Shown: positions 7,716 through 47,745, numbered from the stretch's first letter. The stretch: DNA of 62,537 nucleotides from Candidatus Woesearchaeota archaeon (GCA_964527365.1 CAZGQV010000001.1:8828-71364), one strand, 5' to 3'. Numbers and translations: made by a program. The notes: generated from the letters alone by a model not told the origin.

Positions 7716-8321
7716 ATGTTAGAGGGATTTATTAATTTGGCTTCTTATGGTCTTGGAAGTGGGGGAACTTTAGGGAATATACTTTTTAGTTGGGAGCAGG
7801 CAGGTATTTTTAGTTATGCTTTACCTTTTTTACTTATCTTTGCAATGCTTTTTGCTATTTTAGAGAAGACAAATTTATTTGGAAAGAATAAAGCGATAAA
7901 TGTTATTCTTTCTGTTTCAATTGCTTTAATGGCTTTACAATTTCATTTTGTTTCATATTTCTTTGCAGAAATTTTTCCCAGAATGGGTGTTTTGTTATCA
8001 ATAATTTTAGTTGGAATGATTTTGATGGGATTATTTTTCAAGTTTGAAGATGAAAAGGGTAAATCTACCTTAACTGCAAAGATTTTTGGGGGAATAGTAG
8101 TTTTAGGAATAATTATTATTGTTTATCAAAGTTTTAGCGGTCAATTTGGTTTTGGTTGGGGCCTTGGATCTGCTTGGGGACTCACTTTTTGGTTCCAACA
8201 ATTTGGATCAGCAATATTGGGAGCAATTGTAATTGTCGGGTTACTTATTTGGGCAATTGTTGCATCTAAACCAGCAAGATCTACACCTGCACAGAGTTTT
8301 GGTCCAGCAGTTAGAGCTTAA
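7716..8321 (+). CDS. Multi-pass membrane protein, paralog 3 of 3 (more diverged)
   Basis: YALPFLLIFAMLFAILEK...KAINVILSVSIALM aligns with paralogs 1 and 2. Confidence 0.85.
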   Translation: MLEGFINLASYGLGSGGTLGNILFSWEQAGIFSYALPFLLIFAMLFAILEKTNLFGKNKAINVILSVSIALMALQFHFVSYFFAEIFPRMGVLLSIILVGMILMGLFFKFEDEKGKSTLTAKIFGGIVVLGIIIIVYQSFSGQFGFGWGLGSAWGLTFWFQQFGSAILGAIVIVGLLIWAIVASKPARSTPAQSFGPAVRA

Positions 8322-8374: not shown

Positions 8375-9052
8375 TTAAATTTTTGAATTCATTTTTGAAA
8401 AAGAATTTTCTACCATGTTAATTTCTTTTTTCAAATGATCTATGTTTTTTCCAAATGAACCAACTTTGTCTAAAATAGCGACTTGCATTTTGTCAAATTG
8501 GTGTTCCATTCTTCTAAGCCTCTCATGAATATCATCTATTTTTGAAGTATAAATTGTTTTGAATTCAATTAGGGAATTTATTTTTTTTGACAATTCTTTC
8601 ATTTTTTCAGAAAATACTTGTTCAGCTACTTCAATCATTGTATCTGTTCCAGAATAACTTTCACTATAATTTCCATCTTCTTCTGCATAATTTTCTTCTG
8701 GAGGATAATAATTGGATTCTTCTTGGAATTCTCCATAATTTTCTTGTGGATTGTATTGTTCTTCTTCTGCTTGCATTTGGGGTTTGTATTCTTGAGCAAT
8801 AGTTTCTGGAGCTTGTGCTTGATTCATGTTTTCTTCTTCTGGAATTGGGGCTGGAATCTTTTGTTTATCCATCATGGAGGGTTGCATACCTTCAGTCGGA
8901 CTTTTCTCTTCAATTGCATCTTTTATTTTTCCTTGGTTTAATGCGTCATTAATTTCCATCGGACTTATTCCTTCTGCTTTTAATTTTGTGATGATATCTC
9001 CTTCAGAAGCACCTTCTTTTTTAAGTTTATTAACTCTTTCAAATATTGTCAT
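8375..9052 (-). CDS. Hypothetical protein: helical N-domain, acidic linker, coiled-coil C-terminus
   Basis: ORF 225 aa; E/Q/Y-rich middle; heptad-like C-terminal half. Confidence 0.8.
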   Translation of the reverse strand: MTIFERVNKLKKEGASEGDIITKLKAEGISPMEINDALNQGKIKDAIEEKSPTEGMQPSMMDKQKIPAPIPEEENMNQAQAPETIAQEYKPQMQAEEEQYNPQENYGEFQEESNYYPPEENYAEEDGNYSESYSGTDTMIEVAEQVFSEKMKELSKKINSLIEFKTIYTSKIDDIHERLRRMEHQFDKMQVAILDKVGSFGKNIDHLKKEINMVENSFSKMNSKI

Positions 9053-9485: not shown

Positions 9486-11774
9486 ATGCAATTTGAAAAA
9501 GGGGCTAAATTATATTCTTATTTAGTTGAGCGAGAAGGGGCAGAGGATATTTTGTATTTTAATTATCAAGGAGCACCATATTCTCCTAGTCTGTCTGATC
9601 ATCCAGAAGTTATGGAAAGAACGGTTGATGCATTAATTGAAAATTCTAATGTGAGTAGAATTATTTTTGTTCAAGAAAAAAATTATAATTATGATTTTAA
9701 GGAGACTAGTTATTTATTAGAAATCGCTTCTTTGTATGTCTATTTAATGAAACAAGAAAAAATTTTATCTCATTCAAAAATTGCAGGGCAAAATGATTCT
9801 CTCTTTTCTAAAAGATATAATGATCTTTTTGGTTTTTTATATTTTTTAAAAAAAGATCCTATTTTGGCTTATTTTGAATTAAAAAAAATATTGATTGAAG
9901 CGAAAATTCTTTTGAATAGGTCAAATGATATTTCTAGAATTGATCAAGGGAATTATGTTAGATTGTTGGAAGGTATTTTTAGTTTAGTTGAAAAAACAAA
10001 ATTAATTCAAGCAGCATTGGCAGATCTCGGGAAATATCACCGAGGGGAGAGAGCAATATATCATAAGTTTTTTCGTGTCGATATAATTCCTAATTTTACT
10101 TTTACAAGGTTGGTTCAAGATTATTCTGCTAATTCAGAAATAATTGACCAATACGAAATTTCAATTAATGAATATGATAAAAGTACAGTTACAATTTTAA
10201 AAAATAAAAATGAATCAAAACTTTTTTATCACATTAATCCTCCTGAAAATTCTCTTTCAGAAGAGTATAATTCTTTGTTGAATTTGGCTCGAGGTGTTTT
10301 AATTGAACACCAACCTAAAGCAGAAGAATTTACAGACACAGATAGGACTAGGCAAGTTTTTTTCAATGTCGCTAAAGATTTGCTTAGAGATTTGGCTAAT
10401 AGTAAAAATTTGAAATTAGATTATTCTAATTTGAATCGTCTTGCAACAATTTTAGTTCGCCATACAATTGGATTTGGATTAATAGAAGTTTTACTTCAAG
10501 ATAAAAAGATTCAAGATATTTCTTTGAATGCACCAATTTCCCAAACACCCATTTACATAAAACATCAAGATTATGATGAATGTTCTTCTAATATTCTGCC
10601 TAGCAAGGAAGACAGTGATTCTTGGGCTGCTAAGTTCAGAATGATTTCTGGTCGACCCCTTGATGAAGCAAATCCTATTTTGGATACTCAATTAGAAATT
10701 GGGCGTCTTAGGGCGAGAATTGCAATAATTCAAAATCCTTTAAGTCCAGATGGTCTTGCTTATTCAATTCGAAGACACAGAGAATCTCCTTGGACTTTAC
10801 CCTTATTTATCGAAAATAAAATGATGAATCCTTTAGCTGCTGGCTTATTAAGTTTTTTAGTGGATGGATCAAGAACGCTTCTTGTTGCTGGAACTCGTTC
10901 ATCAGGTAAAACGTCTTTACTTGGGAGTTTAATGTTAGAAATCAATCCCAAATCCAGAATCATTACTGTGGAAGATTCTTTGGAGCTTCCGATTGAAGCT
11001 TTGAGAAGATTGAAATTTAATGTTTTACGAATGAAAGTTCGTTCTGCATTGCTTAAGAGTGGAGCAGAAGTTTCTGCTGAAGATGGAATTAGAACAAGTT
11101 TGCGTTTAGGAGATTCTGCTTTAATTGTGGGTGAAGTACGTTCTAACGAGGCTGTTGCATTGTATGAAGCTATGAGGGTTGGAGCTCTTGCAAATGTTGT
11201 TGCTGGAACAATTCACGGTGCATCTCCTTATGGTGTATTTGACAGAGTTGTAAATGATTTGAAAGTTCCGGCCACTTCTTTTAAGGCAACAGATATTATT
11301 GCCGTTGCTAATCCAATAAAGTCTGCTGATGGACTACATTCTTGGAGAAGGTTACTTGAATTAACTGAAGTTAGAAAACATTGGACTACTGATCCCCTAG
11401 TGGAGGGGGGTTTTAAGGATTTGATGAAATATGATGTGCTTAAAGATGAACTTGAGGCAACTCCCGATTTGATTAATGGTGATAGTGAGGTCATTAAAGA
11501 TATTGCTTCAAAGGTAAAAGGTTGGGCTGGAAATTGGGAAGCTGTTTATGATAATGTTTTACTTCGTGCGAAAATAAAAAAAGAAATTGTTGATGTTTCC
11601 AAAGTTTTGGGAAAACCAGAAATATTGGAAGCAGAATTTAATACTCTTGCAAATCATGAATTTCATAATATTTCTAATGAGGTTATTCGGGAAATTGGAA
11701 TTCCACTAGGAGAGCAAGTATTTCCACGTTGGCAGCGTTGGCTCAATAATGAAATTAAAAAAATAAAGATTTGA
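9486..11774 (+). CDS. Type II/IV secretion (VirB11/TadA/ArlI-family) pilus assembly ATPase with long N-terminal extension
   Basis: Walker A GTRSSGKT, ITVEDSLEL, LRLGDSALIVGEVR, His box GTIHG. Confidence 0.93.
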   Translation: MQFEKGAKLYSYLVEREGAEDILYFNYQGAPYSPSLSDHPEVMERTVDALIENSNVSRIIFVQEKNYNYDFKETSYLLEIASLYVYLMKQEKILSHSKIAGQNDSLFSKRYNDLFGFLYFLKKDPILAYFELKKILIEAKILLNRSNDISRIDQGNYVRLLEGIFSLVEKTKLIQAALADLGKYHRGERAIYHKFFRVDIIPNFTFTRLVQDYSANSEIIDQYEISINEYDKSTVTILKNKNESKLFYHINPPENSLSEEYNSLLNLARGVLIEHQPKAEEFTDTDRTRQVFFNVAKDLLRDLANSKNLKLDYSNLNRLATILVRHTIGFGLIEVLLQDKKIQDISLNAPISQTPIYIKHQDYDECSSNILPSKEDSDSWAAKFRMISGRPLDEANPILDTQLEIGRLRARIAIIQNPLSPDGLAYSIRRHRESPWTLPLFIENKMMNPLAAGLLSFLVDGSRTLLVAGTRSSGKTSLLGSLMLEINPKSRIITVEDSLELPIEALRRLKFNVLRMKVRSALLKSGAEVSAEDGIRTSLRLGDSALIVGEVRSNEAVALYEAMRVGALANVVAGTIHGASPYGVFDRVVNDLKVPATSFKATDIIAVANPIKSADGLHSWRRLLELTEVRKHWTTDPLVEGGFKDLMKYDVLKDELEATPDLINGDSEVIKDIASKVKGWAGNWEAVYDNVLLRAKIKKEIVDVSKVLGKPEILEAEFNTLANHEFHNISNEVIREIGIPLGEQVFPRWQRWLNNEIKKIKI

Positions 11775-11822
11775 TCCAGCATCACCTCGTTTAGTTATTT
11801 GGGAGTAAATTTAATGAGGCAT

Positions 11823-11861
11823 AAATGGTTGAATGAAGAAGTTAAGAAAATAAAGGTTTGA
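11823..11861 (+). repeat. Diverged second copy of the last 12 codons and stop of the ATPase gene
   Basis: Encodes KWLNEEVKKIKV* versus ATPase end RWLNNEIKKIKI*; same frame, 87 nt downstream. Confidence 0.75.
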
Positions 11862-11942
11862 ATTTTCTTTTTATTGGAGTAATTCATTTATTCTAAACAT
11901 TTATTAATTATTTTTCTTTCTTTTTAATGAAGAGTTGATACA

Positions 11943-14111
11943 ATGGAGTCAAGAAAACCAACGGTTGATGAAATTTTGAAAAAATATGGTGCAAAGATAG
12001 AAGGTCAAATCAAATCTTCTTCGAATGCTCCAGCTGAATATAGCCAATCTTATAAAAAATTTAAACAAGAGCTTTCTAAAGAATATACGGGTTATGAAAA
12101 ATGGTGTCATACCCTTGGAAACACTATTAAATTGAAGCCTTCAGAGAAAGATGAAAAAAGGATAAGAAAATCTTTAGAGACTGCACATGTTGATGTTGAA
12201 CCTTGGCAAGCTTTGGGACTTAGTGTTATGTCTTTTGTTAGTGTGTTTTTTTTAGGATTATTTATTTCTGTTGCAATTGCATTAATTAAAGGAGATTTTG
12301 CAGAATTCCCTTTGTTGTTTTTTTTCCTAACCGTAATTTTTTCAATATTTTTATTTTCTTTTATGAATTCATATCCTGAAAGACTTGGAAATAAATGGAG
12401 ATTGAAAGCTTCTAGTCAAATGGTCCCTGCAATTCTGTATATTGTTGTTTATATGAGACATACTCCAAATTTAGAAAAAGCAATAGCTTTTGCATCAAAA
12501 CATTTGCAATATCCTCTTTCTCTTGATTTTAAGAAAGTTTTTTATGATGTTGAAATTGGAAAATATTCCACAATTAAAGAGAGTCTTGATGTATATTTAG
12601 AAAATTGGAGAGGTTATTCAACAGAATTTATAGAAGCATTTCATTTAATTGAAAGTAGTTTATTTGAACCAGAAGAGGGAAGGAGAATTTCTACTTTGGA
12701 GAAAGGACTTCAAGTTGTTTTGGATGGGGTTTATGATAAAATGCTTAAATTTACTCACACAGTTAGAAGCCCAATTACTAATGTTTATATGTTGGGAGTT
12801 GTTTTACCAACCCTGGGGCTTGCATTAATTCCTTTGGCTTCGGCAATGGTTGGTGGAATGCTTAATTTTATGCACATATTTGTAATTTTCAATTTGATTG
12901 TTCCTTTTTTAGTATTTTATTTAACTGATAAAGTTTTAATGTTGCGTCCAGGGGGACACGGGGAATCAACATATTTGGAACAAAATCCATTGTATAAAAA
13001 GTTTAAAGGAAAAGAGGCTTTTAGGAAAGCTTTTGTTTTAGTTTTACCTTTACTTTTGATTGGAATTCTACCTCTTCTTTTTGGATATACTCCTTTACCT
13101 GAAATGGTTGGATTACAATCTGATTATACTTTTCAAGAATTAGGTTTAACTTTTTTAGGAGATGGGAATTTTTTCGGATATCTTGAAACACCTACTGGAG
13201 AAATTAAAGGACCTTTTGGTCTTGGTGCATTGCTTCTTGGAATGTTCTTTCCTTTGGGAATTGCTTTACTTTTTTCTATTTCTTATAAGGAAAGAACAAA
13301 AGAAATGATTATTGAAAGAAATAAAACAAAAGAGCTTGAAAAAGAATTTAATAATTCATTGTTTCAATTAGGGAATCGTTTAGGAAATGGTGTTCCTCCC
13401 GAACTTGTTTTTGGAAAAGTAGCTCAGTCAAGTAAGGGACTTAGGGCAGGAGATTTTTTTGCTCGTGTTAATTATAATATTCAAAGTATGGGGATGAGTG
13501 TAGATAAAGCAATTTTTGATAAAAATCGGGGAGCAATCAAATCTTATCCGAGCGATTTAATTGCAACATCGATGAGAGTTTTAATTGAATCTTCCAAAAA
13601 AGGATTAAAAATTGCAGCAATTTCTTTGATGAGTATTTCAGAATATGTGAAAAACATAAACAAAATTACAATTAGATTGAAAGATATGCTTGCCGAAATT
13701 TCTAGTGATATGAAAAGTAATATGACCTTTTTAGCTCCATTACTTTCTGGAATTGTGATTGGCCTTGCTGCAATGATTACTGCAATTCTTGGAAAATTAC
13801 AATTGTCTAACTTAGGAGATGCCGGGGGAGCTGGGCTTGGAAATATGGGGAGTCTTTTGAATATTTTTGATTATGCGTCGATGATTCCCCCTTATTTTTT
13901 ACAAATTTCTGTTGGAATTTATCTTGTCCAAATAATTTTTATTTTAACTTCGACATTAGTTTCAATTGATTCTGGGAAAGATGATTTAGAACAGACATAT
14001 AAAACTGGACTTAATTTGAAAAAAGGAATTGGGTTATATTTTGTTACTGCTTTAATTGCTGTTTTGGCTTTGTCAATCTTGAGTTCTGTTGTTTTGGGAA
14101 ATTTGGTTTAA
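11943..14111 (+). CDS. Type IV pilus membrane platform protein (TadB/TadC/GspF/ArlJ-like)
   Basis: Follows the ATPase; multi-TM; LFQLGNRLGNGVPPE and alternating cytoplasmic/TM T2SSF-like blocks. Confidence 0.88.
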   Translation: MESRKPTVDEILKKYGAKIEGQIKSSSNAPAEYSQSYKKFKQELSKEYTGYEKWCHTLGNTIKLKPSEKDEKRIRKSLETAHVDVEPWQALGLSVMSFVSVFFLGLFISVAIALIKGDFAEFPLLFFFLTVIFSIFLFSFMNSYPERLGNKWRLKASSQMVPAILYIVVYMRHTPNLEKAIAFASKHLQYPLSLDFKKVFYDVEIGKYSTIKESLDVYLENWRGYSTEFIEAFHLIESSLFEPEEGRRISTLEKGLQVVLDGVYDKMLKFTHTVRSPITNVYMLGVVLPTLGLALIPLASAMVGGMLNFMHIFVIFNLIVPFLVFYLTDKVLMLRPGGHGESTYLEQNPLYKKFKGKEAFRKAFVLVLPLLLIGILPLLFGYTPLPEMVGLQSDYTFQELGLTFLGDGNFFGYLETPTGEIKGPFGLGALLLGMFFPLGIALLFSISYKERTKEMIIERNKTKELEKEFNNSLFQLGNRLGNGVPPELVFGKVAQSSKGLRAGDFFARVNYNIQSMGMSVDKAIFDKNRGAIKSYPSDLIATSMRVLIESSKKGLKIAAISLMSISEYVKNINKITIRLKDMLAEISSDMKSNMTFLAPLLSGIVIGLAAMITAILGKLQLSNLGDAGGAGLGNMGSLLNIFDYASMIPPYFLQISVGIYLVQIIFILTSTLVSIDSGKDDLEQTYKTGLNLKKGIGLYFVTALIAVLALSILSSVVLGNLV

Positions 14112-14150
14112 GATAATAATATTTAAATAAGATCAAATCTAATTAAGATT

Positions 14151-16670
14151 ATGAAGAGGAGAATTGAGTTTGGGATTGTAATTTTTTCTTTAATGCTAGT
14201 TTTATCATTATCTTTTGTTTCTGCAGGATTTTTTTCTAATATTTTGAATAAATTTACAGGTGAAGTTTCATATGGGGAACCCTTTCTTGCAGAAAAAGTA
14301 ATTTCTAGTTGTGTTGAAACAGATAAGGGATTAGATTATGATAAATTGGGAGTGATTGTTGTTGGAGATAAAAAGAGAGAAGATTTCTGTTTAAATGTGG
14401 GACCAATTAAAGAAGTTCAAACACATATTAATGAATATTTTTGTGATAAAAATGGAGAGATTAGTTTTGAAATTTATAAATGTCCTAATGGCTGTGTTGG
14501 AGGTGTTTGTGTGAATGTTGAAGAAGAAATTGGAGTTTTATTGAATCAGGAGAGTTCTGATTTTGTTTATGGGAAAATATCTTTTTGGTATGGAAAAGTA
14601 AATGTTCATACAGAAAATGAAGTTTGGGTTACAGACCCGGATGGAACAGCAGGAGCTGGAACATTTTCCCAATGGGGTGCAGATGGTTGGTTTGATAGAA
14701 AATTAGAATATTGTCAAAGATTTTGGCCGAATACAGTTGAAGTTCAAGAAGCTGAAAAAGAAAATATTTCAGTTTGGAGAAACCAAGGGAATGTTGGAGG
14801 TCCTTTCACTACGACAAAGAGGACTTATAAATGTGTACAAGAAAATTCAATAAATGCTACTAATAATAATACAGCCAGGTGTGTTGATACGGATGGAGGA
14901 ATAAATTATCTTGTCCAAGGAGTGGCTTCTGGAAGAACTCTTAATAATCCTAAGCTGAATGATTTTAAGGATGTTTGTTTATCTAACCTGTCTGTAGGAG
15001 AGTATTTTTGTGAAAATAACTTTGTAAGGAAGAAAGAATATGGTTGTTATTTGGGGGGAGGATACTGTATGGGGGGTGCTTGTAAAGGGATGATAATAGA
15101 TCATACTAATCAAACAAATGAAACTAGAGTAGATTTAGATAAGAATTTAGAAATTGATTCTCTTTGGCAAGATGATGAAATCGGTTGTGTGGGTGATAAA
15201 TGTTTAGATGCAAATTTGGAGGGAGATTCAAAAACTCCTGCTAAGAAAAAGGTGAAAAAGAAGTTCAGAAAAAGAATTGCTGATTTCTTTAGTGGTATTT
15301 TTGGGAAGCCTGAGAAAGTTGGAGAAACTGATTCAACTAGGGAAATGAATGAAACTGTTTGTACTGATAGCGATGGTGGAATTAATTATGTTGTCCAGGG
15401 AGATGTTTTATTTGGTGAAGTTAATAGTTCTATGTCAAATTATACTGATTATTGTACTGAAGAAACTTCAAAATCTTTGAGAGAATATTATTGTGGTGAG
15501 AAATTTGAAGGAGAATTAATTCCTAGAGAAGTTCTTTTTTCGAATGAATCGGATATAATAAGTTTTCCAGATAGCATTGTTATTGAAGGAAATTATGCCT
15601 ATATTTCTTCTAGAGCTGCGTCTTTTGAAACTAGGTCCATAGTCGTTTTAGATATTTCTGAATCTATGCCTTCTTTTGTAGGAACATATTTTATGTCTGA
15701 TTATTTTGAAGGAGATTATATTCCATCAAGTCTTCTTATTGAAGAGGATTTTCTATATGTTTTAGTTAAAGAATTTGGAAGCTCAGAGGGAGGATTTTTA
15801 ATTTTTAATATTTCGGATCCGAGCAATTTAGTAAATGTCACATATGTTCCTTCTTTTGCACCTTCTGCTCCGAGAGACTTATTTTTAGATGAAAACATTC
15901 TCTATATCTTAAATATGGATGCATCTGGGAATAGTTATATAACTATCTTTGATGTTTTTGATCTTGAAAATCCTTCTTTTTTAGGAATGAACAATGAAAG
16001 TTTTGGAGAAGGAGGCTTGACGGACATTTTTGTTAAAGAAAGTTATGCTTATGTTACAGATTATAACGATGATAGAATTATTTTATATGATGTTTCTAAT
16101 CCGAATAATATAAATTTTATTAAATATTATGAAAATTCTCTTATTAGAAGAGATGGAGTTTTTATTTCAGATAATTACCTTTATGTGCCGATTGTAGAAA
16201 GAAGTACAAATAAACCTGGAATTGAAATAATTGATATTTCGGATCCTCTTAATGAAAAATCTATTTCTGTAGCATATAATCCTTCTCAGATATTTGCGTC
16301 TTCATTTGCTTCTCCCAATATTGTTCTTGATGGGACACTTTCTTATGTTTCTTATTATGACTCCACATCTGATTCTCATTCACATGTGAGTTTATATGAT
16401 GTCTCTATGCCAAGTAATGTTTCTTTTATAACACAAATAGTAGATGAAGAAGGAGTTTACTTAAGAACTCCACAAGATATTGAATTGGGAGAAAATTATT
16501 TATATGTTTTGTCAAATTCTATGGAATATAGTGCTGTGCAAGTTTTGGAATTTATTGGAGAAACCTTTTTACAAGCAGAATTTGATTTTTATTCTTGTCC
16601 AATAAATTGTGATGAAGGAAAGTGCGTTGATTATGTGAGTACTGAATCAAATGGTTCCTTGTCTTATTAA
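14151..16670 (+). CDS. Secreted Cys-rich repeat protein with LVIVD-type beta-propeller
   Basis: Signal peptide; three C-x-D/E-T/S-D-x-G-x-N/D-Y modules; repeated IVIEGNYAYIS/IVVLDIS/IEIIDISDP motifs. Confidence 0.82.
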   Translation: MKRRIEFGIVIFSLMLVLSLSFVSAGFFSNILNKFTGEVSYGEPFLAEKVISSCVETDKGLDYDKLGVIVVGDKKREDFCLNVGPIKEVQTHINEYFCDKNGEISFEIYKCPNGCVGGVCVNVEEEIGVLLNQESSDFVYGKISFWYGKVNVHTENEVWVTDPDGTAGAGTFSQWGADGWFDRKLEYCQRFWPNTVEVQEAEKENISVWRNQGNVGGPFTTTKRTYKCVQENSINATNNNTARCVDTDGGINYLVQGVASGRTLNNPKLNDFKDVCLSNLSVGEYFCENNFVRKKEYGCYLGGGYCMGGACKGMIIDHTNQTNETRVDLDKNLEIDSLWQDDEIGCVGDKCLDANLEGDSKTPAKKKVKKKFRKRIADFFSGIFGKPEKVGETDSTREMNETVCTDSDGGINYVVQGDVLFGEVNSSMSNYTDYCTEETSKSLREYYCGEKFEGELIPREVLFSNESDIISFPDSIVIEGNYAYISSRAASFETRSIVVLDISESMPSFVGTYFMSDYFEGDYIPSSLLIEEDFLYVLVKEFGSSEGGFLIFNISDPSNLVNVTYVPSFAPSAPRDLFLDENILYILNMDASGNSYITIFDVFDLENPSFLGMNNESFGEGGLTDIFVKESYAYVTDYNDDRIILYDVSNPNNINFIKYYENSLIRRDGVFISDNYLYVPIVERSTNKPGIEIIDISDPLNEKSISVAYNPSQIFASSFASPNIVLDGTLSYVSYYDSTSDSHSHVSLYDVSMPSNVSFITQIVDEEGVYLRTPQDIELGENYLYVLSNSMEYSAVQVLEFIGETFLQAEFDFYSCPINCDEGKCVDYVSTESNGSLSY

Positions 16671-16715
16671 AACACTTCTCAAAAGATTTATTAAATAGAT
16701 TTCATTATTTTTATC

Positions 16716-16886
16716 ATGAAGGGGTTAAACATATTTTTTGGAAAAAAAGGAATTGTTTCAGAATATCTTCCATGGATTATAATTGCTGTTGCATTGTTGG
16801 TTATATTGATGTTAACAATTTTTGTTTTGAAGGGGAAAGGAATTGCGATAATAGATAATCTAAAAGATTTGTTTAGATGGAGATAA
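16716..16886 (+). CDS. Small pilin-like protein, 56 aa (not in ORF track)
   Basis: Hand translation MKGLNIFFGKKG/IVSEYLPWIIIAVALLVILMLTIFVLKGKGIAIIDNLKDLFRWR*; class III signal peptide. Confidence 0.8.
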   Translation: MKGLNIFFGKKGIVSEYLPWIIIAVALLVILMLTIFVLKGKGIAIIDNLKDLFRWR

Positions 16887-16887
16887 A

Positions 16888-17046
16888 ATGGCTGAATTAA
16901 CAATAAATCAAATAATAAAATTAATCTTGGGTATTTTAGTAGTTGTGGCAGTTATTGGGGGATTGTATTTTGTTTTTAAAAATAAAATTGGTGGTTTTTT
17001 TACAGATTTACCAACAGACATAAACATTATTCGGAGTTTATTATGA
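16888..17046 (+). CDS. Small pilin-like membrane protein, 52 aa (not in ORF track)
   Basis: Hand translation MAELTINQIIKLILGILVVVAVIGGLYFVFKNKIGGFFTDLPTDINIIRSLL*; starts 1 nt after previous stop and overlaps next start (ATGA). Confidence 0.75.
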   Translation: MAELTINQIIKLILGILVVVAVIGGLYFVFKNKIGGFFTDLPTDINIIRSLL

Positions 17047-17528
17047 TGAGAAAAAAGGGAATGCTTCTTGCTAGCGAAACTTTGAAAATGGTTTTAGCCA
17101 TCATTTCTTTAGGTTTTTTGATTTATCTTTTAACTGCAATTTATTTTTCAAATGTAAATGATAAAAAATTAATTGAAGCAGATTCTGTATTAGAAAGAAT
17201 TTCAAATATTATAGAGCATTCTCTTTTGCCAGAATTTACTAACGAGAAAGTTACTGAAATTACTCCTGCAGGTTGGTATATTTTTAGTTTTACCGAAGGA
17301 GTTAAACCTAATTCTTGTGTTGATTTGAGTTGTTTTTGTATTTGTGATTCTGTTTGGGGGATCCCCCTGGTTGGGAATACACAAGCTGAAGAATGTGATA
17401 AGGATGGTGCTTGTGTAATTATTCAAAATTTGATGGAATTTGATGAAATAGAAATAGGTGAAGCTGATAATCCCACAAGTATTGAAATATTTAAGAATGG
17501 AGATTGGTTGGGGGTAAAGAAAGTATGA
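17043..17528 (+). CDS. Type IV pilin-like protein
   Basis: MMRKKG/MLLASE plus hydrophobic helix; Cys-rich C-domain. Confidence 0.82.
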   Translation: MMRKKGMLLASETLKMVLAIISLGFLIYLLTAIYFSNVNDKKLIEADSVLERISNIIEHSLLPEFTNEKVTEITPAGWYIFSFTEGVKPNSCVDLSCFCICDSVWGIPLVGNTQAEECDKDGACVIIQNLMEFDEIEIGEADNPTSIEIFKNGDWLGVKKV

Positions 17529-17626
17529 ATTTAGATAGCATGATTAAATATCTTTTATGGATTGTTTTATTTGCAGCAGCGCTTTTTGGATTGTATAAAT
17601 TATTTTCAGGGTTAGGAGTAATATAG
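17525..17626 (+). CDS. 33-aa single-TM peptide (not in ORF track)
   Basis: MNLDSMIKYLLWIVLFAAALFGLYKLFSGLGVI*; ATGA overlap upstream, stop abuts next ATG. Confidence 0.65.
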   Translation: MNLDSMIKYLLWIVLFAAALFGLYKLFSGLGVI

Positions 17627-18535
17627 ATGATAAACAAATTTAATAAAAAAGGAGAAATGACAACACAACAAATTGTTGTTTTAATTATTTTAATTGTTAG
17701 TTTTGCTATTTTGTTATTTTTTCTTGTACGACTTGGTTTTGGAAATGAAACTCAAAAAGAAGTTTGCCATAATTCAGTTGTAACTCGAGGGAGTGCAATT
17801 GTTCCAACGGAAGTGACTCCTTTAGATTGTCAAAGACAATATGTTTGTATAACTGCAGATAATAATTGTGATGCTCCTTTAACCAATCCTGTAAAGAAAA
17901 AAGTGAAAAGTAAAGAAGAATTTTATAATGTTTTAGCAATGGAGTTAACTGATTGTTGGTGGATGTTTGGAGAAGGTAAAGTAAATTATGTTGGTAAAGA
18001 TTTAACAGAGAATTTGTATTGTTCTCTTTGTAGTCAGATTGCTTTTGATAGTTCAATTCAGGATTTGATGGGCGCGGGAGTAATTCAAAAAGAAGAATTT
18101 TATAGGCATATGACTTTAACAAATATGACTGGAAGTATTCAAACATATGCAAAATATTTGTTTGGAACAAATAATTTAGAAGAAATTTCTGCAGGGGCTT
18201 CTTTTGGTGAAATTAATTTAGAAGGTCCACAATATTATTCTTTTATGGCAATTACAAGTGATGTTAATACTTTTGGATGGGTTGCAGGAGGGGCTGCAGT
18301 GGTGGGGGCTTTAGCTTTAGCTATTCCAACTGGAGGTTCAAGTTTAGTGGCTTTAGCAATTGTAACTGCGGGAACAACAGTTGGGGGAATTGGGGCTGGA
18401 GCTCTTTCTCAAAAATATGTAGCTTCATTAAAAGAAGGTTCTTCGGGAAGCGATTATCTTTTGCCGTCTTTAGTGGAAGCGGGTTCAGAAGAATTTAAAC
18501 AATTAAATTGTGATTATATTGTGACTAAATCTTAG
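17627..18535 (+). CDS. Type IV pilin-like protein (large, Cys-rich, with Gly/Ala hydrophobic hairpin)
   Basis: NKKG/EMTTQQ plus TM; CHNSV, CWWMFGEG, CSLCS; late GGAAVVGALALAIPTGG segment. Confidence 0.8.
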   Translation: MINKFNKKGEMTTQQIVVLIILIVSFAILLFFLVRLGFGNETQKEVCHNSVVTRGSAIVPTEVTPLDCQRQYVCITADNNCDAPLTNPVKKKVKSKEEFYNVLAMELTDCWWMFGEGKVNYVGKDLTENLYCSLCSQIAFDSSIQDLMGAGVIQKEEFYRHMTLTNMTGSIQTYAKYLFGTNNLEEISAGASFGEINLEGPQYYSFMAITSDVNTFGWVAGGAAVVGALALAIPTGGSSLVALAIVTAGTTVGGIGAGALSQKYVASLKEGSSGSDYLLPSLVEAGSEEFKQLNCDYIVTKS

Positions 18536-18543
18536 GTTAAAAA

Positions 18544-18954
18544 ATGTTAAAGAAAAATAAAAGAGGAGAAATTTTAATTGAGAATATTATTTTCATTATT
18601 TTGAATATTGTTTTTTTAACTATTTTAGTTTTGTTTTTAATTAAACAAGGAACTGGTGTTGTTCTTTTAGAAGATGCTTATGCAAAACAAATTGCGTTGC
18701 TCGTCGATTCAGCGAAACCGGGAATGATTATGCAAATTGATATGGAAAAAGGATTGAAAGTAGCTGAGGAAAAAGGAATATCTTTTGATGAAATAATCAC
18801 AAGAAATAAAAATTATTTGACTGTCAAATTAAGTGAAAAAAGTGGAATCGAATATCCATTTTTTAATGATGTTGAGGTGGATTTTTATTCAGATAAAATA
18901 GGTAATGAACATACAGGAAAATATATTATTATCATTTCTAGGAGGAGTGTATGA
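18544..18954 (+). CDS. Type IV pilin-like protein
   Basis: KNKRG/EILIE plus hydrophobic helix. Confidence 0.82.
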   Translation: MLKKNKRGEILIENIIFIILNIVFLTILVLFLIKQGTGVVLLEDAYAKQIALLVDSAKPGMIMQIDMEKGLKVAEEKGISFDEIITRNKNYLTVKLSEKSGIEYPFFNDVEVDFYSDKIGNEHTGKYIIIISRRSV

Positions 18955-19469
18955 ATAAACGAGGCGGAGATAAATTAATTTCTATTTATTGGTTTATTGT
19001 TTTAACTATTATTGCAGGAGGGGTTGTTGCGATGGTTGGAGTCTTTTATAATTCTCCTTATGATGTTAGGAGTGTTGAAGCCGAAATACTTGCGATGAAT
19101 ATTGCTGATTGTGTTTATCCTGGAGGAACTTTGGACACAAGACTTATTGCCAGTGGATCTTTCAAAGAAGAATTCAGAGATAATTTTATGGATAGATGCA
19201 AATTAAATTTTGAATCTAAACAAGAATTCTATTTCGGGCAATATTATTTTGAAATAAATTTTTATGATTCTCAAAATTTAGATAGGTCGATTTTTAATGT
19301 TTCAGAAGGAAATCAAAATTGGATAGAAGATTGTGGTATTGAAAATATTGGAAAGGAAAAATTAGTAAAATGTAATGAAAAGAAATTTTTTGCGAAGGAT
19401 AACAGTGATAAGGTATATTTTGTAAAGATACTTTCAATTGTGAGGAATACAGAAAAAAATGTTAAATAA
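18951..19469 (+). CDS. Type IV pilin-like protein
   Basis: MNKRG/GDKLISIYWF plus hydrophobic helix. Confidence 0.8.
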   Translation: MNKRGGDKLISIYWFIVLTIIAGGVVAMVGVFYNSPYDVRSVEAEILAMNIADCVYPGGTLDTRLIASGSFKEEFRDNFMDRCKLNFESKQEFYFGQYYFEINFYDSQNLDRSIFNVSEGNQNWIEDCGIENIGKEKLVKCNEKKFFAKDNSDKVYFVKILSIVRNTEKNVK

Positions 19470-19797
19470 ATTTAAACAAGGACAAATTGGAGAAACGACG
19501 ACATGGTTAGTTGCTACAGTTTTAATAGTTGTTATTTTATTATTTTTTATTTTTGGTTCTTCTCTTTTAGCGGGAACAAAAAATCTTAAACCATTCAAGG
19601 AAACATTATTTTCTGATTCAAATTTGGGAGAAGAAGATTTGATTTTGAAAAAATCTGTTATGACATATTATTCCACCCAAGCAGAATCTATCCGAAACAA
19701 GATTAATATCGAATTAATGGAATTAGAAAAAAATGGAGAATTTAATTTGGAATTAGAAGAAACAAAGATTAAAATTAGTGCAGGATTAAATCAATGA
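19459..19797 (+). CDS. Type IV pilin-like protein
   Basis: KFKQG/QIGETTTW plus hydrophobic helix. Confidence 0.8.
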   Translation: MLNKFKQGQIGETTTWLVATVLIVVILLFFIFGSSLLAGTKNLKPFKETLFSDSNLGEEDLILKKSVMTYYSTQAESIRNKINIELMELEKNGEFNLELEETKIKISAGLNQ

Positions 19798-20153
19798 ATA
19801 TGAATAAATTAAAGAAAAATAGAAAAGGAGATATTGGAATTACAATTTTGGTAATTGGAGTTTTTGCAGTTTGTAGTCTTGCACTTTTAACTTTTTATAT
19901 ATCTGATTATAAAATTAGTAACTCTTTTGTGGGATTAGATGTAATGCATAAATTAAATGCAGATGTAGATTTGTATAAATTTTATAAATCCGAGGGTATT
20001 TCTGAAGATAAACTTAATTCTTATTTTAATTTGACAACGAAAGGAAATGATAAATATTTTTATCGGGAAATTACTGGAAATAAGTTTAGTTTGTTAAATT
20101 TGAAGTCAGAAAAAATTCTTTTATTTTCTGTAGAGTATAAAATTCCTTCTTAA
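19794..20153 (+). CDS. Type IV pilin-like protein
   Basis: KNRKG/DIGITIL plus hydrophobic helix. Confidence 0.8.
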   Translation: MNMNKLKKNRKGDIGITILVIGVFAVCSLALLTFYISDYKISNSFVGLDVMHKLNADVDLYKFYKSEGISEDKLNSYFNLTTKGNDKYFYREITGNKFSLLNLKSEKILLFSVEYKIPS

Positions 20154-20205
20154 AGTAAGTTTTATAAACTGTTTTAACTATATTTGAGTGTAATTAGAGG
20201 CTAAA

Positions 20206-20643
20206 ATGAATTTTTCAAAAAACACTAAAGGTCAAGGAATGAGTACGAATACAATTGTACTTTTAATTTTAGGATTAGTTCTTTTAGTTGCATTGATTTT
20301 TGGTTTTGCAACAGGTTGGGATGCTTTTAAAAATATTGCTAATCCTACAAACGTTGATTCAATAGTTGATGATTGTCAAACTGCATGTTCATTAAATCAA
20401 CAATATAGTTTTTGTTCTTCTGAAAGAACTTTGAGAATTAATGAAGAAAATATTGAAATAAAAACGAGTTGCTATGTTTTATCTGGAATGGACAAATATA
20501 GTTCATATATAGATGGATGTCCTGCAATTAAATGTGATTTAAGTTGTGAACAAATTAAAATTAATGATAAATTTGGAACAAGTGTCTCTGGAATTTATGA
20601 TGTTAGTGGTTTGGTTGATGGGGCTTGTTGGGTTCAAGACTGA
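20206..20643 (+). CDS. Type IV pilin-like protein with Cys-rich domain
   Basis: KNTKG/QGMSTNTIVLL plus TM; CQTAC, FC, SC, CPAIKC. Confidence 0.82.
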   Translation: MNFSKNTKGQGMSTNTIVLLILGLVLLVALIFGFATGWDAFKNIANPTNVDSIVDDCQTACSLNQQYSFCSSERTLRINEENIEIKTSCYVLSGMDKYSSYIDGCPAIKCDLSCEQIKINDKFGTSVSGIYDVSGLVDGACWVQD

Positions 20644-20689
20644 TTAATTTTTTAGAAATAGTTTTAAAGTTTTTTTTCTTATAATTATT

Positions 20690-20866
20690 ATGTCAGATTA
20701 TGCTTGTGGAGAAAGTAGGAAAAAAAAGAAGGATAAATTAAAAGAAAAGAAGAGGAATCCCTATAAAACAGGGGGAAGATTTCGAGGATCTTTCATTAAT
20801 GATACAGATAATTCTTCAAAAAAAGTTATTAATTTGAAAAAAAGAAAAGCAAAGAAAAAGAAATAA
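20690..20866 (+). CDS. Small, highly basic hypothetical protein, 58 aa (not in ORF track)
   Basis: MSDYACGESRKKKKDKLKEKKRNPYKTGGRFRGSFINDTDNSSKKVINLKKRKAKKKK*; fills the gap between genes. Confidence 0.5.
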   Translation: MSDYACGESRKKKKDKLKEKKRNPYKTGGRFRGSFINDTDNSSKKVINLKKRKAKKKK

Positions 20867-20968
20867 ATTTCTTTTTCATGCGACATATTAATTTGCAATA
20901 CATCGGAACAAAAGTTTAAAAAAAGAATTGATTGTTAGTTTTATAAATTCTCTTTTCTATTTTATTTT

Positions 20969-21820
20969 ATGTTAAGTTTTGAGGTGATTTTTTTATTTGT
21001 TTTGGGATTAGTTTGGATTCTCTTTGCAGTGTTTGAAGATTTGAAAACAAGAGAGATTGCAAATTGGTTAAATTTCAGTTTGATAATTTTTGCTCTGGGA
21101 TTTAGATTTTTTTTCTCTTTATTTGAAGGGGGAGATTTTCAATTTTTTTATCAAGGGATTATTGGATTTGGAATATTTTTTGTATTGAGTAATTTGTTTT
21201 ATTATGGAAAGATGTTTGCAGGAGGAGATTCAAAACTTATGATGGCTCTTGGAGCAATTTTACCTTTTTCTACAAGTTTTCTATTTAATATGAAAATATT
21301 TCTTCTATTCTTATTCCTATTTTTAATTGTGGGGGCAATTTATGGAATTTTGATTAGTTTTTCTTTAGGAATAATTCATTTTTCAAATTTGAAAAGAGAA
21401 TTTAAAATACAGTTAAAGAAAAATAAAAATATCTTATACTTTCTGCTTTCACTTGCAATTATTTTCTTAATTATTGGGTTTTTTACAAAAATTTCTTTTT
21501 ATTTTGGATTGATTTTATTTTTTATTGCTTATTATTATATTTATGTTAAATCTATTGATGAATCTTGTATGGTGAGGAAAGTAAAATCTTCTAAATTGAC
21601 TTTGGGTGATTGGTTATACAAAGATGAACGTGTTGGAAAGAAAATTGTTAAAGCTACTTGGGATGGTCTTGGAGAAAAAGAAATTAAATTATTACAAAAC
21701 AAAAAATTTGTAATGTTAAAGTTTGGGATACAATTTGCTCCAGTGTTTTTGATTAGTTTTATTTTACTCTGGTTGATTTTAGAATTCAATTGGTTTGGTT
21801 TTTTAATTGGGCTGTTTTAA
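20969..21820 (+). CDS. Class III (prepilin) signal peptidase, A24 family
   Basis: FEDLKTREIANW and AGGDSKLMMALG aspartyl motifs; multi-TM. Confidence 0.92.
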   Translation: MLSFEVIFLFVLGLVWILFAVFEDLKTREIANWLNFSLIIFALGFRFFFSLFEGGDFQFFYQGIIGFGIFFVLSNLFYYGKMFAGGDSKLMMALGAILPFSTSFLFNMKIFLLFLFLFLIVGAIYGILISFSLGIIHFSNLKREFKIQLKKNKNILYFLLSLAIIFLIIGFFTKISFYFGLILFFIAYYYIYVKSIDESCMVRKVKSSKLTLGDWLYKDERVGKKIVKATWDGLGEKEIKLLQNKKFVMLKFGIQFAPVFLISFILLWLILEFNWFGFLIGLF

Positions 21821-42698: not shown

Positions 42699-43001
42699 AT
42701 GGGTTCAATAATGGGAATAAAGACTACAAGGGATGACAAGGTTACAATCGAAGTTCAATTAGATTATGAAGAATCTTTAAAATTAAAGGGACATATAAAA
42801 AATATTCATCTTTTTTCAGAAGATTCTGCGGAGATAAAGGCAAATTTATCCCAAAGAGGAACAAATGAAGCAACAAAATATTTTTTAATTCCCAGGGAAC
42901 TTCGAGAAAATTTAACTTTTAATGAAAAAGTTAAATGTCAGAGGATTGATACTGAAAATAGGATAATTTTTATATATATGGTTGATAAAATTAAATTATG
43001 A
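42699..43001 (+). CDS. Hypothetical protein, paralog of 42253 gene; AbrB-like motif
   Basis: MGSIMGIKT..KLKGHIKNIHLFS..QRGTNEATKYFLIPRELR. Confidence 0.78.
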   Translation: MGSIMGIKTTRDDKVTIEVQLDYEESLKLKGHIKNIHLFSEDSAEIKANLSQRGTNEATKYFLIPRELRENLTFNEKVKCQRIDTENRIIFIYMVDKIKL

Positions 43002-43035
43002 ATATGGAATCTTATCTTACTGGGGAAAAATTGAA

Positions 43036-47529: not shown

Positions 47530-47745
47530 ATGGCTAAGAAAAGGGGTTTTAGGAATAGGATTTTATTATTTGCAGTTTATGTCATATTTGCCATTTATTT
47601 TATTAATCTCCAAATATCTTTCTTGATTGTTCCAGAATTTGTTTTAAAATTTAATAATTTGATTTTTTTTGTTGGGGGTTTATTGTTGCTTTTTGCTGCA
47701 TTTAAACAATTAATGAAAACTTCTAGACGAGATTCAATCCTTTAG
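47530..47745 (+). CDS. Small two-TM membrane protein
   Basis: Basic N-terminus and two hydrophobic helices. Confidence 0.7.
   Translation: MAKKRGFRNRILLFAVYVIFAIYFINLQISFLIVPEFVLKFNNLIFFVGGLLLLFAAFKQLMKTSRRDSIL

What the first reader, a model, noticed from the sequence alone, without database searches (positions are those of the whole stretch)
9486..21820. Type IV pilus/Tad-like locus with about 10 divergent pilin-like genes, three invisible to the ORF track
Seen: ATPase, platform protein, a Cys-rich surface protein, ten tightly coupled small genes and an A24 peptidase, all on the plus strand. Cleavage sites vary: KKG/IVSE, KKG/MLLASE, KKG/EMTTQQ, KRG/EILIE, KRG/GDKL, KQG/QIGE, RKG/DIGI, TKG/QGMS. 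Hidden members: 16716-16886, 16888-17046, 17525-17626. The last two have no basic leader and may need no peptidase. Known: type IV filaments mediate archaeal adhesion and are proposed for DPANN-host contact. Inference: a complex filament or tip with many minor pilins, unlike the archaellum.
Basis: partly seen in the sequence, partly recalled or inferred. Interest (0 to 1): 0.7.

Follow-up and report, generated by a model that had tools for sequence, protein, structure and literature searches.

The report
Conserved DPANN type IV filament locus
This stretch encodes a complete type IV pilus-like assembly machine with ten unannotated pilin-like genes. It is conserved gene for gene in hundreds of Pacearchaeota-type ultrasmall archaea and is a likely tool for attaching to other cells.

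Summary
Window 9486-21820 (+) carries these genes:
- a CpaF/afGspE-like secretion ATPase;
- a very divergent two-domain T2SSF (TadC/PilC-type) platform protein;
- ten tightly coupled pilin-like genes;
- an A24 prepilin peptidase with both catalytic Asp residues.

All three sub-60-aa "hidden" ORFs are real. They are intact and in the same place in 50 or more other species.

The order ATPase, platform, ten pilin-like genes, small basic ORF, peptidase holds in 28 of 34 full-length loci from Pacearchaeota/Woesearchaeota-labelled MAGs. Eight proteins carry a conserved [NK]K[KR]G leader followed by a hydrophobic helix. None matches a known pilin or archaellin family.

The two leaderless microproteins (52 and 33 aa) are leaderless in all close orthologues. 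Their homologues in a divergent sister clade do have basic leaders. The leaderless forms start within two residues of that cleavage site, so they look like "born-mature" pilin derivatives.

The Cys-rich 839-aa protein is not part of the system. It sits in a variable insertion slot.

Type IV pilus-like loci with neighbouring coiled-coil proteins were already reported for cluster 2 DPANN (Hamm et al. 2024). The machine is therefore a known kind. The full pilin set and the leaderless members appear undescribed.

Verdict: a new variant of a known kind, of moderate interest. Function (adhesion or host contact) is inferred.

The parts
8375..9052 (-). Coiled-coil protein, 225 aa. Cytoplasmic (no signal peptide, no TM). 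Transcribed divergently from the ATPase.
   Evidence: Syntenic in 54 of 80 loci. It has only weak coiled-coil-type Pfam hits and no TM segment. It fits the 'coiled-coil proteins next to CpaF/TadC' described for cluster 2 DPANN loci (PMC11291902).
9067..9405 (-). Second coiled-coil protein, 112 aa, cytoplasmic.
   Evidence: Found in 54 of 80 loci at 61% median identity, always next to the ATPase. No TM segment.
9486..11774 (+). Type IV filament assembly ATPase, 762 aa, with an N-terminal extension of about 215-235 aa.
   Evidence: Pfam T2SSE 4.5e-17. NCBIfam FlaI 2e-38 and TadA 1e-36, both far below the equivalog cut-offs. PDB afGspE 2OAP 6e-30, CpaF 5e-26, FlaI 1.5e-14. Catalytic motifs are invariant in 57 orthologues.
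11943..14111 (+). Platform protein, 722 aa, about 9 TM helices, with two divergent T2SSF-type cytoplasmic domains.
   Evidence: The window protein itself has no Pfam or NCBIfam hit. An AlphaFold model (pLDDT 72.6) matches the cytoplasmic domains of EpsF, OutF and PilC (probability 0.94-0.99, TM-score on target 0.60-0.65). T2SSF is weakly hit in 7 of 45 orthologues. Distant family members from Aenigmarchaeota reach T2SSF at 4e-07, above the gathering score, and NCBI names one 'type II secretion system F family protein'. TM count.
14151..16670 (+). Cys-rich secreted surface protein, 839 aa, with a Sec-type signal and LVIVD repeats. It is a variable insert, not a core component.
   Evidence: Pfam LVIVD 1.8e-09. 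Relatives occur in only 9 of 80 loci. The slot between the platform and the first pilin-like gene is under 160 bp in 42 of 64 loci. Elsewhere it holds unrelated genes on either strand: secreted proteins, lipoproteins or a toxin-antitoxin-like pair.
16716..16886 (+). Helix-only prepilin, 56 aa: KKG|IVSEYLPW..., 44 aa after cleavage. Candidate major subunit, Flp/EpdE-like in architecture.
   Evidence: Found in 64 of 80 loci at 57% median identity. Conserved motif [KR]G|[IV][IV]SEYLPW[IL]LIA. It is always the first gene of the pilin block. No Flp_Fap or class III-signal Pfam hit.
16888..17046 (+). Leaderless pilin-like microprotein, 52 aa (MAELTINQIIKLILGILVVV...).
   Evidence: Found in 59 of 80 loci. 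It cannot be extended upstream, and SD-like motifs precede it. Its profile aligns with leader-bearing long homologues in a divergent clade (L072 1e-10, L058, L022, L079). Residue 1 falls 2 residues before the KKG| cleavage site of the L072 homologue.
17043..17528 (+). Prepilin-like protein, 161 aa: KKG|MLLASETLK..., with a Cys-containing globular domain.
   Evidence: Found in 61 of 80 loci. Conserved NKKG leader and a KPNsC..C.C.C motif.
17525..17626 (+). Leaderless pilin-like microprotein, 33 aa (MNLDSMIKYLLWIVLF...).
   Evidence: Found in 51 of 80 loci as intact ORFs of 31-38 aa. Only 4 of 50 orthologues have any upstream alternative start. Divergent-clade positional homologues carry leaders, for example MKNRG|TIIVEGLLSKLLWIALF. 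The profile alignment (2e-09) puts residue 1 at mature position +2, and the acidic residue at position 4/5 is kept. It is related to the 52-aa ORF (hhalign probability 94%). A public gene call on a close relative misses it.
17627..18535 (+). Prepilin-like protein, 302 aa: KKG|EMTTQQIV..., with a Cys-rich alpha/beta domain and a Gly/Ala-rich insert at 216-262.
   Evidence: 346 homologues, all 'hypothetical' except one mislabelled SlyB. AlphaFold pLDDT 79.6: helix 13-35, helix 43-56, a confident globular domain, and low confidence over 216-262. No structural match in the PDB (best E = 2).
18544..18954 (+). Prepilin-like protein, 136 aa: KRG|EILIENIIF...
   Evidence: Found in 58 of 80 loci at 48% identity. 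Conserved leader and helix.
18951..19469 (+). Prepilin-like protein, 172 aa: MNKRG|GDKLISIYWF...
   Evidence: Found in 54 of 80 loci. MNKKG is more than 80% conserved.
19459..19797 (+). Prepilin-like protein, 112 aa: KQG|QIGETTTW... (family consensus KKA|QIGET).
   Evidence: Found in 47 of 80 loci. Consensus. Its N-terminus is profile-related to that of the 56-aa member (probability 95%).
19794..20153 (+). Prepilin-like protein, 119 aa: RKG|DIGITILVIG...
   Evidence: Found in 48 of 80 loci. Consensus NKKG|DIPITILVIGVFA.
20206..20643 (+). Prepilin-like protein, 145 aa: TKG|QGMSTNTIV..., with a Cys-rich C-terminal domain.
   Evidence: Found in 42 of 80 loci. Consensus NKRG|QGLSTNTIILLILG.
20690..20866 (+). 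Very basic ORF, 58 aa (RNKRKDKKREKKKHPYKKGG motif). Syntenic, but probably not a filament part.
   Evidence: Conserved in 44-45 loci. It is kept in the two loci that have lost the pilin block. No family hit.
20969..21820 (+). A24 aspartic prepilin peptidase, 283 aa, with at least 6 TM helices and a soluble insert of about 60 aa.
   Evidence: Pfam Peptidase_A24 1.4e-12. NCBIfam FlaK_Arch 1.2e-10, below cut-off. Asp24 and GGD87 conserved. TM estimate.

Best explanation
The locus encodes a complete type IV filament (TFF) machine. It is vertically inherited and part of the core genome of Pacearchaeota-type DPANN archaea.

Shown here:
- a hexameric-type secretion ATPase with intact catalytic motifs;
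- a polytopic platform protein of the T2SSF superfamily;
- an A24 aspartic peptidase with both catalytic Asp residues;
- eight proteins with a conserved basic leader ending in [KR]-G/A, followed by 4-7 polar residues and a hydrophobic helix of about 20 residues;
- two microproteins that consist of such a helix but start at the point where the leader would be cut.

Inferred mechanism:
1. The peptidase removes the short leaders at the cytoplasmic membrane face.
2. The ATPase, working through the platform, lifts the mature subunits out of the membrane.
3. The subunits stack into a filament through their N-terminal helices.
4. The 44-residue helix-only product of 16716-16886 is the most likely bulk subunit. 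It is the best conserved of the ten pilin-like genes, always the first gene of the block, and resembles Flp/EpdE in lacking a globular head.
5. The seven members with globular, often Cys-rich, domains are low-copy minor pilins that prime assembly or form the tip and binding surface.
6. The two leaderless microproteins enter the same assembly, or sit in its membrane base, without needing the peptidase.
7. The two divergently transcribed cytoplasmic coiled-coil proteins are accessory parts at the ATPase.

The likely use is adhesion or contact with a surface or partner cell.
For: - ATPase identity and motifs.
- Platform: fold match to EpsF/PilC/OutF domains; weak T2SSF hits in orthologues; transitive T2SSF hits and a T2SSF name in distant family members.
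- Peptidase.
- Leaders.
- The ten families share only their N-terminal 30-45 residues, as pilins do.
- Fixed gene order in 28 of 34 full-length loci from different species, and 372 relatives of the platform among GTDB species representatives.
- Leaderless members derive from leader-bearing ones.
- A related Aenigmarchaeota locus also has the platform followed by a row of MKG|/KKG|-type pilin-like genes.
- Literature: conserved type IV pilus-like loci with CpaF, TadC and coiled-coil proteins in cluster 2 DPANN including Pacearchaeota, with proteomic detection in Ca. Nanohaloarchaeum antarcticus (PMC11291902).
Against: - None of the ten pilin-like proteins, and none of 72 orthologues, hits a pilin, archaellin, Flp or class III-signal family. 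The only exceptions are two weak Flp1_like hits at E = 0.011.
- The one modelled member has no structural match to a solved pilin.
- There is no expression or processing evidence: no RNA run holds the sequence.
- Which subunit is the major one is inferred only from size, position and conservation.
- Two related genomes keep the ATPase, platform and peptidase but have glycosyltransferase genes where the pilin block should be. The block is therefore dispensable at this position.
Confidence: 0.8

Rival explanations
1. The same machine builds a short pseudopilus rather than a long adhesive pilus. It would work like a type II secretion or Com-type piston that pushes proteins out, or pulls DNA or other macromolecules in, across the S-layer.
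For: The ten different pilin-like genes are strictly single-copy and 1:1 orthologous, with no duplicated major-pilin gene. This resembles the fixed pseudopilin sets of T2SS and Com systems (established knowledge). DPANN archaea depend on external building blocks. The locus is embedded among housekeeping genes and behaves like a core function.
Against: No ComEC/ComEA-type channel, nuclease or dedicated secreted cargo is conserved in the locus; the only neighbouring secreted protein is a variable insert. The helix-only first gene resembles the bulk subunit of true Tad/Epd pili. The reference cited by PMC11291902 for this kind of locus favours cell-cell interaction.
Confidence: 0.15
2. It is a reduced archaellum, that is, a rotary motility filament.
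For: The best NCBIfam hit of the ATPase is FlaI (2e-38), and the best for the peptidase is FlaK. Coiled-coil proteins sit next to the ATPase, as ArlC/D/E/X do in archaella. A KaiC-family ATPase lies 21 kb away at 42982-43731.
Against: The FlaI score is 132 bits against a cut-off of 550. PDB matches rank afGspE and CpaF far above FlaI. No archaellin, ArlF, ArlG or ArlH is in the locus. The KaiC gene is not linked to any other arl gene.
Confidence: 0.03
3. The two leaderless microproteins are not filament subunits. They would be small membrane-anchored assembly factors that merely descend from pilins, for example stabilising the platform or gating subunit entry.
For: They lack both a leader and a globular domain. 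Small single-pass proteins are common accessory parts of membrane machines (general knowledge). The 33-aa member is little more than one transmembrane helix.
Against: They start within two residues of the ancestral cleavage site and keep an acidic residue at position 3-5, the feature used for subunit-subunit contacts in type IV pilins (the role of that residue is established knowledge for bacterial pilins). Their N-termini are profile-related to the mature N-terminus of the 145-aa prepilin.
Confidence: 0.4

Closest known systems
Type IV pilus-like loci of cluster 2 DPANN archaea (Hamm et al. 2024, PMC11291902)
   Same: CpaF-type ATPase plus a TadC-type platform with neighbouring coiled-coil proteins. 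The paper reports these loci for Pacearchaeota, Woesearchaeota, Nanoarchaeota, Aenigmarchaeota and Nanohaloarchaeota. The platform family found here extends to Aenigmarchaeota.
   Different: The text and figure legend of that paper name filament proteins (FlaF, PilA) for only one of its two loci. It does not describe a ten-gene pilin block, helix-only or leaderless members, or the linked peptidase. Direct orthology to its Nanohaloarchaeum loci was not tested here.
Epd pilus of Methanococcus maripaludis (archaeal TFF system 1) and the bacterial Tad/Flp pilus
   Same: A multi-gene locus with several minor pilin-like genes, and a short major pilin candidate without a globular head. The ATPase is similar to CpaF/TadA. 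The peptidase has no methyltransferase domain. An EY pair lies just after the cleavage site, as in the Flp G/XXXXEY motif (from memory; here it is one residue closer).
   Different: One fused 722-aa platform instead of two platform genes (preprint 10.64898/2026.04.22.720090). No hits to Flp_Fap, TadE or the class III-signal (DUF361) families. Q at +1 occurs in only two of the eight leaders. Two members are leaderless.
Archaellum
   Same: The same superfamily of ATPase, platform and A24 peptidase, with class III signal peptides.
   Different: No archaellins, ArlF/G, ArlH or ArlC/D/E/X. The ATPase is far below the FlaI equivalog threshold and has a long N-terminal extension.
Minor-pilin or pseudopilin sets of bacterial T4aP, T2SS and Com systems
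   Same: A fixed set of different, single-copy pilin-like proteins encoded in a row, related only through their N-terminal helices.
   Different: Archaeal-type leaders and peptidase. Ten members instead of four or five. No sequence or fold match.

Membership tests
Type IV filament (TFF) superfamily | Secretion ATPase of the GspE/PilB/FlaI/CpaF family with intact catalytic motifs | tested here: met
   Pfam T2SSE 4.5e-17. PDB afGspE 6e-30 and CpaF 5e-26. Motifs invariant in 57 orthologues.
Type IV filament (TFF) superfamily | Polytopic platform protein with T2SSF (GspF/PilC/TadC/FlaJ) domains | tested here: met
   The window protein has no direct Pfam hit. Support comes from a fold match to EpsF, PilC and OutF domains at probability 0.94-0.99, weak T2SSF hits in 7 of 45 orthologues, and distant family members that pass the T2SSF gathering score or are named T2SSF by NCBI.
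Type IV filament (TFF) superfamily | A24 aspartic prepilin peptidase with two catalytic Asp residues | tested here: met
   Pfam 1.4e-12. Asp24 and GGD87 conserved.
Type IV filament (TFF) superfamily | Substrates with class III signal peptides: a short basic leader, G/A at -1, then a hydrophobic helix | tested here: met
   Eight proteins have this at the sequence level, conserved in their orthologues. Actual cleavage was not tested.
Type IV filament (TFF) superfamily | Pilin fold: a protruding N-terminal helix packed on a globular head | tested here: inconclusive
   The 302-aa member models as helix 13-35, helix 43-56 and a confident alpha/beta domain, but no solved pilin matches it.
Tad/Flp pilus and archaeal Epd pilus (system 1) | Two separate platform genes (TadB + TadC, or two Epd platform genes) | tested here: not met
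   A single 722-aa gene in the window and in 76 orthologues. The two-gene feature is as described.
Tad/Flp pilus and archaeal Epd pilus (system 1) | Flp/EpdE-type short major pilin and TadE/F or DUF361-type minor pilins, recognisable by family models | tested here: not met
   No Flp_Fap, TadE or class III-signal hits at E <= 1 in the window proteins or in 72 orthologues. Only the architecture agrees: a 44-aa helix-only mature product.
Tad/Flp pilus and archaeal Epd pilus (system 1) | ATPase in the CpaF/TadA or archaeal clade 1 lineage | tested here: inconclusive
   TIGR03819 TadA scores 127 bits against a cut-off of 373. CpaF 5e-26 is second to afGspE. No phylogeny with arCOG reference sequences could be built.
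Archaellum | FlaI equivalog, archaellins, ArlF/G, ArlH | tested here: not met
   FlaI scores 132 bits against a cut-off of 550. No archaellin or Arl family hits.
Cluster 2 DPANN type IV pilus-like loci (PMC11291902) | CpaF-like ATPase and TadC-like platform next to coiled-coil protein genes, in a cluster 2 DPANN genome | tested here: met
   Gene content. Related loci all come from MAGs labelled Pacearchaeota, Woesearchaeota or Nanoarchaeota, apart from some unclassified 'archaeon' records and one mislabelled 'bacterium'.
Cluster 2 DPANN type IV pilus-like loci (PMC11291902) | Orthology to the Ca. Nanohaloarchaeum antarcticus locus 1 or locus 2 genes | not tested

The most novel reading that the evidence does not exclude
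The 52-aa and 33-aa genes are 'born-mature' type IV pilins. They would be subunits that evolved from ordinary prepilins by losing the leader (and, for one, the globular head), so that translation starts at the former cleavage site and the protein joins the filament or its base without any peptidase step. This would be the first peptidase-independent members of the pilin superfamily. It would also show that a helix of about 30 residues is enough to take part in type IV filament assembly.
Probability: 0.35. Interest if true: 0.65.

Novelty: new variant of a known kind. Interest (0 to 1): 0.5.

Why it matters
- Pacearchaeota-type archaea are abundant, uncultivated and thought to live attached to other cells, but how they attach is unknown.
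- One groundwater study used pili to tell CPR bacteria from DPANN archaea, on the grounds that type IV pilus components are "missing in DPANN genomes" (bioRxiv 10.1101/2020.05.14.094862).
- This locus shows that a whole order-level group carries a complete filament system. Its platform and all of its pilins escape standard family models and are annotated "hypothetical".
- It gives a defined parts list of 13-15 genes for proteomics, cryo-ET and heterologous cleavage tests.
- It also gives a natural experiment, leader-bearing versus leaderless homologues, on what a pilin needs in order to be assembled.

Tried and rejected
- Sequence search of the platform profile against PDB chains found nothing.
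- An internal-repeat test of the two platform halves by hhalign was in register but not significant (E = 0.27).
- Pfam and NCBIfam scans of all pilin-like proteins and 72 orthologues gave no pilin family.
- A Foldseek search of the 302-aa model against the PDB gave no match.
- A PDB sequence search with the peptidase gave no hit.
- A search for RNA sequencing runs holding the small-ORF region found none, so expression could not be checked. The DNA is held by salt-lake and marine metagenome runs.
- I tested whether the class III-signal 612-aa protein at 47787-49625 is the long form of the 52-aa gene. It has no tblastn hit in any related locus, so this idea is rejected for now.
- I tested whether the leaderless ORFs could have upstream alternative starts that give a leader. 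They do not.
- I considered the Cys-rich 839-aa protein as a conserved adhesin of the system and rejected it.
- Literature searches for 'leaderless pilin' and related phrases found nothing.

Full report
**What is in the sequence.** On the + strand between 9486 and 21820 lie, in order:
- a 762-aa ATPase;
- a 722-aa polytopic membrane protein;
- an 839-aa Cys-rich protein with a Sec-type signal;
- ten small genes of 56, 52, 161, 33, 302, 136, 172, 112, 119 and 145 aa;
- a 58-aa very basic ORF;
- a 283-aa membrane peptidase.

The ten small genes are separated by -11 to +52 nt, with four ATGA overlaps. Several are preceded by GGAG/GAGG-type motifs. The window has about 29% G+C. Neighbouring genes such as aEF-1beta, an RPA-like OB-fold protein and a HIT protein mark it as archaeal.

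**Core enzymes.**
- The ATPase matches Pfam T2SSE (4.5e-17).
- It also matches NCBIfam FlaI (2e-38) and TadA (1e-36), both far below the equivalog cut-offs.
- Among solved structures it is nearest to Archaeoglobus GspE (6e-30) and Caulobacter CpaF (5e-26), well ahead of FlaI (1.5e-14).
- Its Walker A, Asp box, Walker B/Glu and His box are invariant in 57 orthologues.
- The first 215-235 residues or so lie outside all of these matches. A 2026 preprint notes that N-terminal domains of these ATPases are subsystem-specific.
- The peptidase matches Peptidase_A24 (1.4e-12) and FlaK (1.2e-10), and keeps both catalytic Asp residues.

**Platform protein.** The 722-aa protein itself has no Pfam, NCBIfam or PDB sequence match. 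Three lines of evidence place it in the T2SSF (GspF/PilC/TadC/FlaJ) superfamily:
1. An AlphaFold model (pLDDT 72.6) has a domain that matches the cytoplasmic domains of EpsF, OutF and PilC. Probability is 0.94-0.99 and TM-score 0.60-0.65 on the target.
2. Seven of 45 orthologues give weak T2SSF hits.
3. An exhaustive profile search finds 1181 clusters at 50% identity. Distant members from Aenigmarchaeota hit T2SSF at up to 4e-07, in both halves of the protein, and NCBI names one a T2SSF family protein.

It has about nine transmembrane helices.

**Pilin-like genes.**
- Under a strict rule, 10 of 204 ORFs in the window qualify, and 7 of these are in this 3.9-kb block.
- Within each orthologous family the K-[KR]-G is 70-90% conserved.
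- The ten families are related to each other only through the first 30-45 residues, which is the pattern seen in pilins.
- None of them, and none of 72 orthologues, matches any pilin, archaellin, Flp, TadE or class III-signal family.
- The 302-aa member models confidently (pLDDT 79.6) as an N-terminal helix, a second helix and an alpha/beta domain, with a poorly predicted Gly/Ala-rich insert. Nothing in the PDB matches it.
- The structural test of "models as a pilin" is therefore inconclusive. The assignment rests on leaders, context and conservation.

**Conservation.**
- The platform protein has 372 relatives among GTDB species representatives. The 80 fetched are 63-88% identical and come from MAGs labelled Pacearchaeota, Woesearchaeota or Nanoarchaeota, apart from some unclassified 'archaeon' records and one mislabelled 'bacterium'.
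- In 28 of 34 loci with full flanks the order is identical: membrane protein, two divergent coiled-coil genes, ATPase, platform, the ten pilin-like genes, the basic ORF, peptidase, HIT, EF-1beta, RPA.
- Each pilin-like family is single-copy per locus.
- The Cys-rich 839-aa gene is the exception. It has relatives in only 9 of 80 loci.
- The slot it occupies is under 160 bp in 42 of 64 genomes. Elsewhere that slot holds unrelated secreted proteins, lipoproteins or a toxin-antitoxin-like pair, on either strand.
- A close relative has another insert between the ATPase and the platform.
- Two genomes keep the ATPase, platform, basic ORF and peptidase but have glycosyltransferase genes instead of the pilin block.

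**Hidden ORFs.**
- The 56-, 52- and 33-aa ORFs have homologues in 64, 59 and 51 of 80 loci, at 52-57% identity. Length and position are preserved.
- The 56-aa protein has the strongest motif, [KR]G|[IV][IV]SEYLPW[IL]LIA. After cleavage it would be a 44-residue helix-turn-helix.
- In architecture this resembles Flp and EpdE pilins, which lack a globular head (Flp motif from memory). I take it as the best candidate for the bulk subunit, but this is an inference.

**Leaderless members.**
- The 52- and 33-aa proteins are leaderless in every close orthologue. An in-frame stop lies 0-20 codons upstream, and no alternative start is conserved.
- In a divergent sister group of loci (L022, L058, L072, L079) the genes at the same positions do have leaders.
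- The 33-aa counterpart there reads MKNRG|TIIVEGLLSKLLWIALF... or MVKKLDRKG|EISEIHFIDWLLW....
- The 52-aa counterpart there reads MKNKKG|DVTSDETIKWILVLVV... followed by 200-300 further residues.
- Profile alignments are significant (2e-09 and 1e-10 in a 7-sequence database, so indicative only). They put residue 1 of the leaderless forms at +2 and -2 relative to those cleavage sites, with an acidic residue kept at position 3-5.
- The window's clade thus appears to have converted two prepilins into proteins that are made already "mature". Whether they are filament subunits or membrane-resident helpers cannot be decided here.

**Comparison with what is known.**
- Makarova et al. 2016 (PMC4858521) surveyed archaeal type IV pili with only a few nanoarchaeal genomes. 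For one ATPase clade they could not find the cognate pilins in those genomes.
- Sivabalasarma and Albers (2026 preprint) place DPANN systems in system 1 (Epd-like, two platform genes, many pilins), subsystem 4A, or Aap-like classes.
- Hamm et al. 2024 (PMC11291902) report two conserved type IV pilus-like loci with CpaF, TadC and coiled-coil proteins across cluster 2 DPANN, including Pacearchaeota. They name filament proteins in only one of the two loci.
- The present locus fits that description: the ATPase, the platform and two cytoplasmic coiled-coil genes upstream. Its platform family reaches Aenigmarchaeota, where it is again followed by a row of MKG|-type pilin-like genes.
- The kind of machine, and its presence in this lineage, are therefore known.
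- What I could not find described: the ten-gene orphan pilin block in fixed order, the linked peptidase, the helix-only candidate major subunit, and the two leaderless derivatives.
- A statement in the literature that type IV pilus components are missing in DPANN genomes is contradicted for this group.

**Verdict.** This is a new variant of a known kind, of moderate interest. The mechanism of cleavage by the A24 peptidase and ATPase/platform-driven polymerisation is inferred from the parts. Function in adhesion or partner contact is plausible but untested.

Noticed in passing
window 47787-49625 (+), with 47530-47745 and 49622-58621: A 612-aa protein outside the cluster starts MFKGCENKRG|QVTIFIIIALVIVVLVGGYFVFK. 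This is a class III-type leader whose helix resembles that of the 52-aa microprotein (tblastn E = 0.003). It overlaps by 4 nt the start of a 2999-aa giant Sec-signal surface protein. A 71-aa ORF just upstream (MAKKRG|FRNRILLF...) is also motif-positive. These may be further substrates of the same peptidase or machine.
   Followed up: partly
window 20690-20866 (+): A 58-aa extremely basic ORF with a conserved RNKRKDKKREKKKHPYKKGG motif lies between the pilin block and the peptidase in 44-45 loci. It is kept even where the pilin block is lost. It has no family hit, so it may be a nucleic-acid-binding or ribosome-associated microprotein.
   Followed up: partly
window 14151-16670 (+); L014 12201-16253: The slot between the platform gene and the first pilin gene is an insertion hotspot. 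It holds unrelated secreted proteins or lipoproteins in about 20 of 64 genomes. The window's Cys-rich protein shares its signal peptide and the '...SFVSAG[WF]F...TG' start with two proteins inserted at the same place in L014.
   Followed up: partly
L061 12259-14188 and L078 12298-16690: Two related genomes have glycosyltransferase-type and other genes in place of the whole pilin block, while keeping the ATPase, platform, basic ORF and peptidase. The pilin genes may have moved elsewhere in those genomes or been lost.
   Followed up: no
window 17627-18535, residues 216-262: The 302-aa pilin-like protein has a Gly/Ala/Val/Thr-rich, moderately hydrophobic insert that AlphaFold cannot place (pLDDT 31-37). 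It led JGI to label one orthologue 'SlyB'. It could be a glycine-zipper membrane or oligomerisation segment.
   Followed up: partly
window 42982-43731 (+): A KaiC-family ATPase (Pfam 1e-36) of 249 aa, followed by a 385-aa protein with no family hit. It is not linked to any archaellum gene.
   Followed up: partly
window 7716-8321 (+): A 201-aa six-TM membrane protein of unknown family is syntenic with the coiled-coil/ATPase end of the locus in about 50 genomes.
   Followed up: no
locus of P0122 (JGI contig): A 79%-identical relative carries a nucleotidyltransferase/HEPN pair and a 323-aa gene inserted between the ATPase and the platform. It also has a TrmB regulator and a 221-aa gene inserted before the peptidase. 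The public gene call there includes the 56- and 53-aa ORFs but misses the 33-aa one.
   Followed up: no
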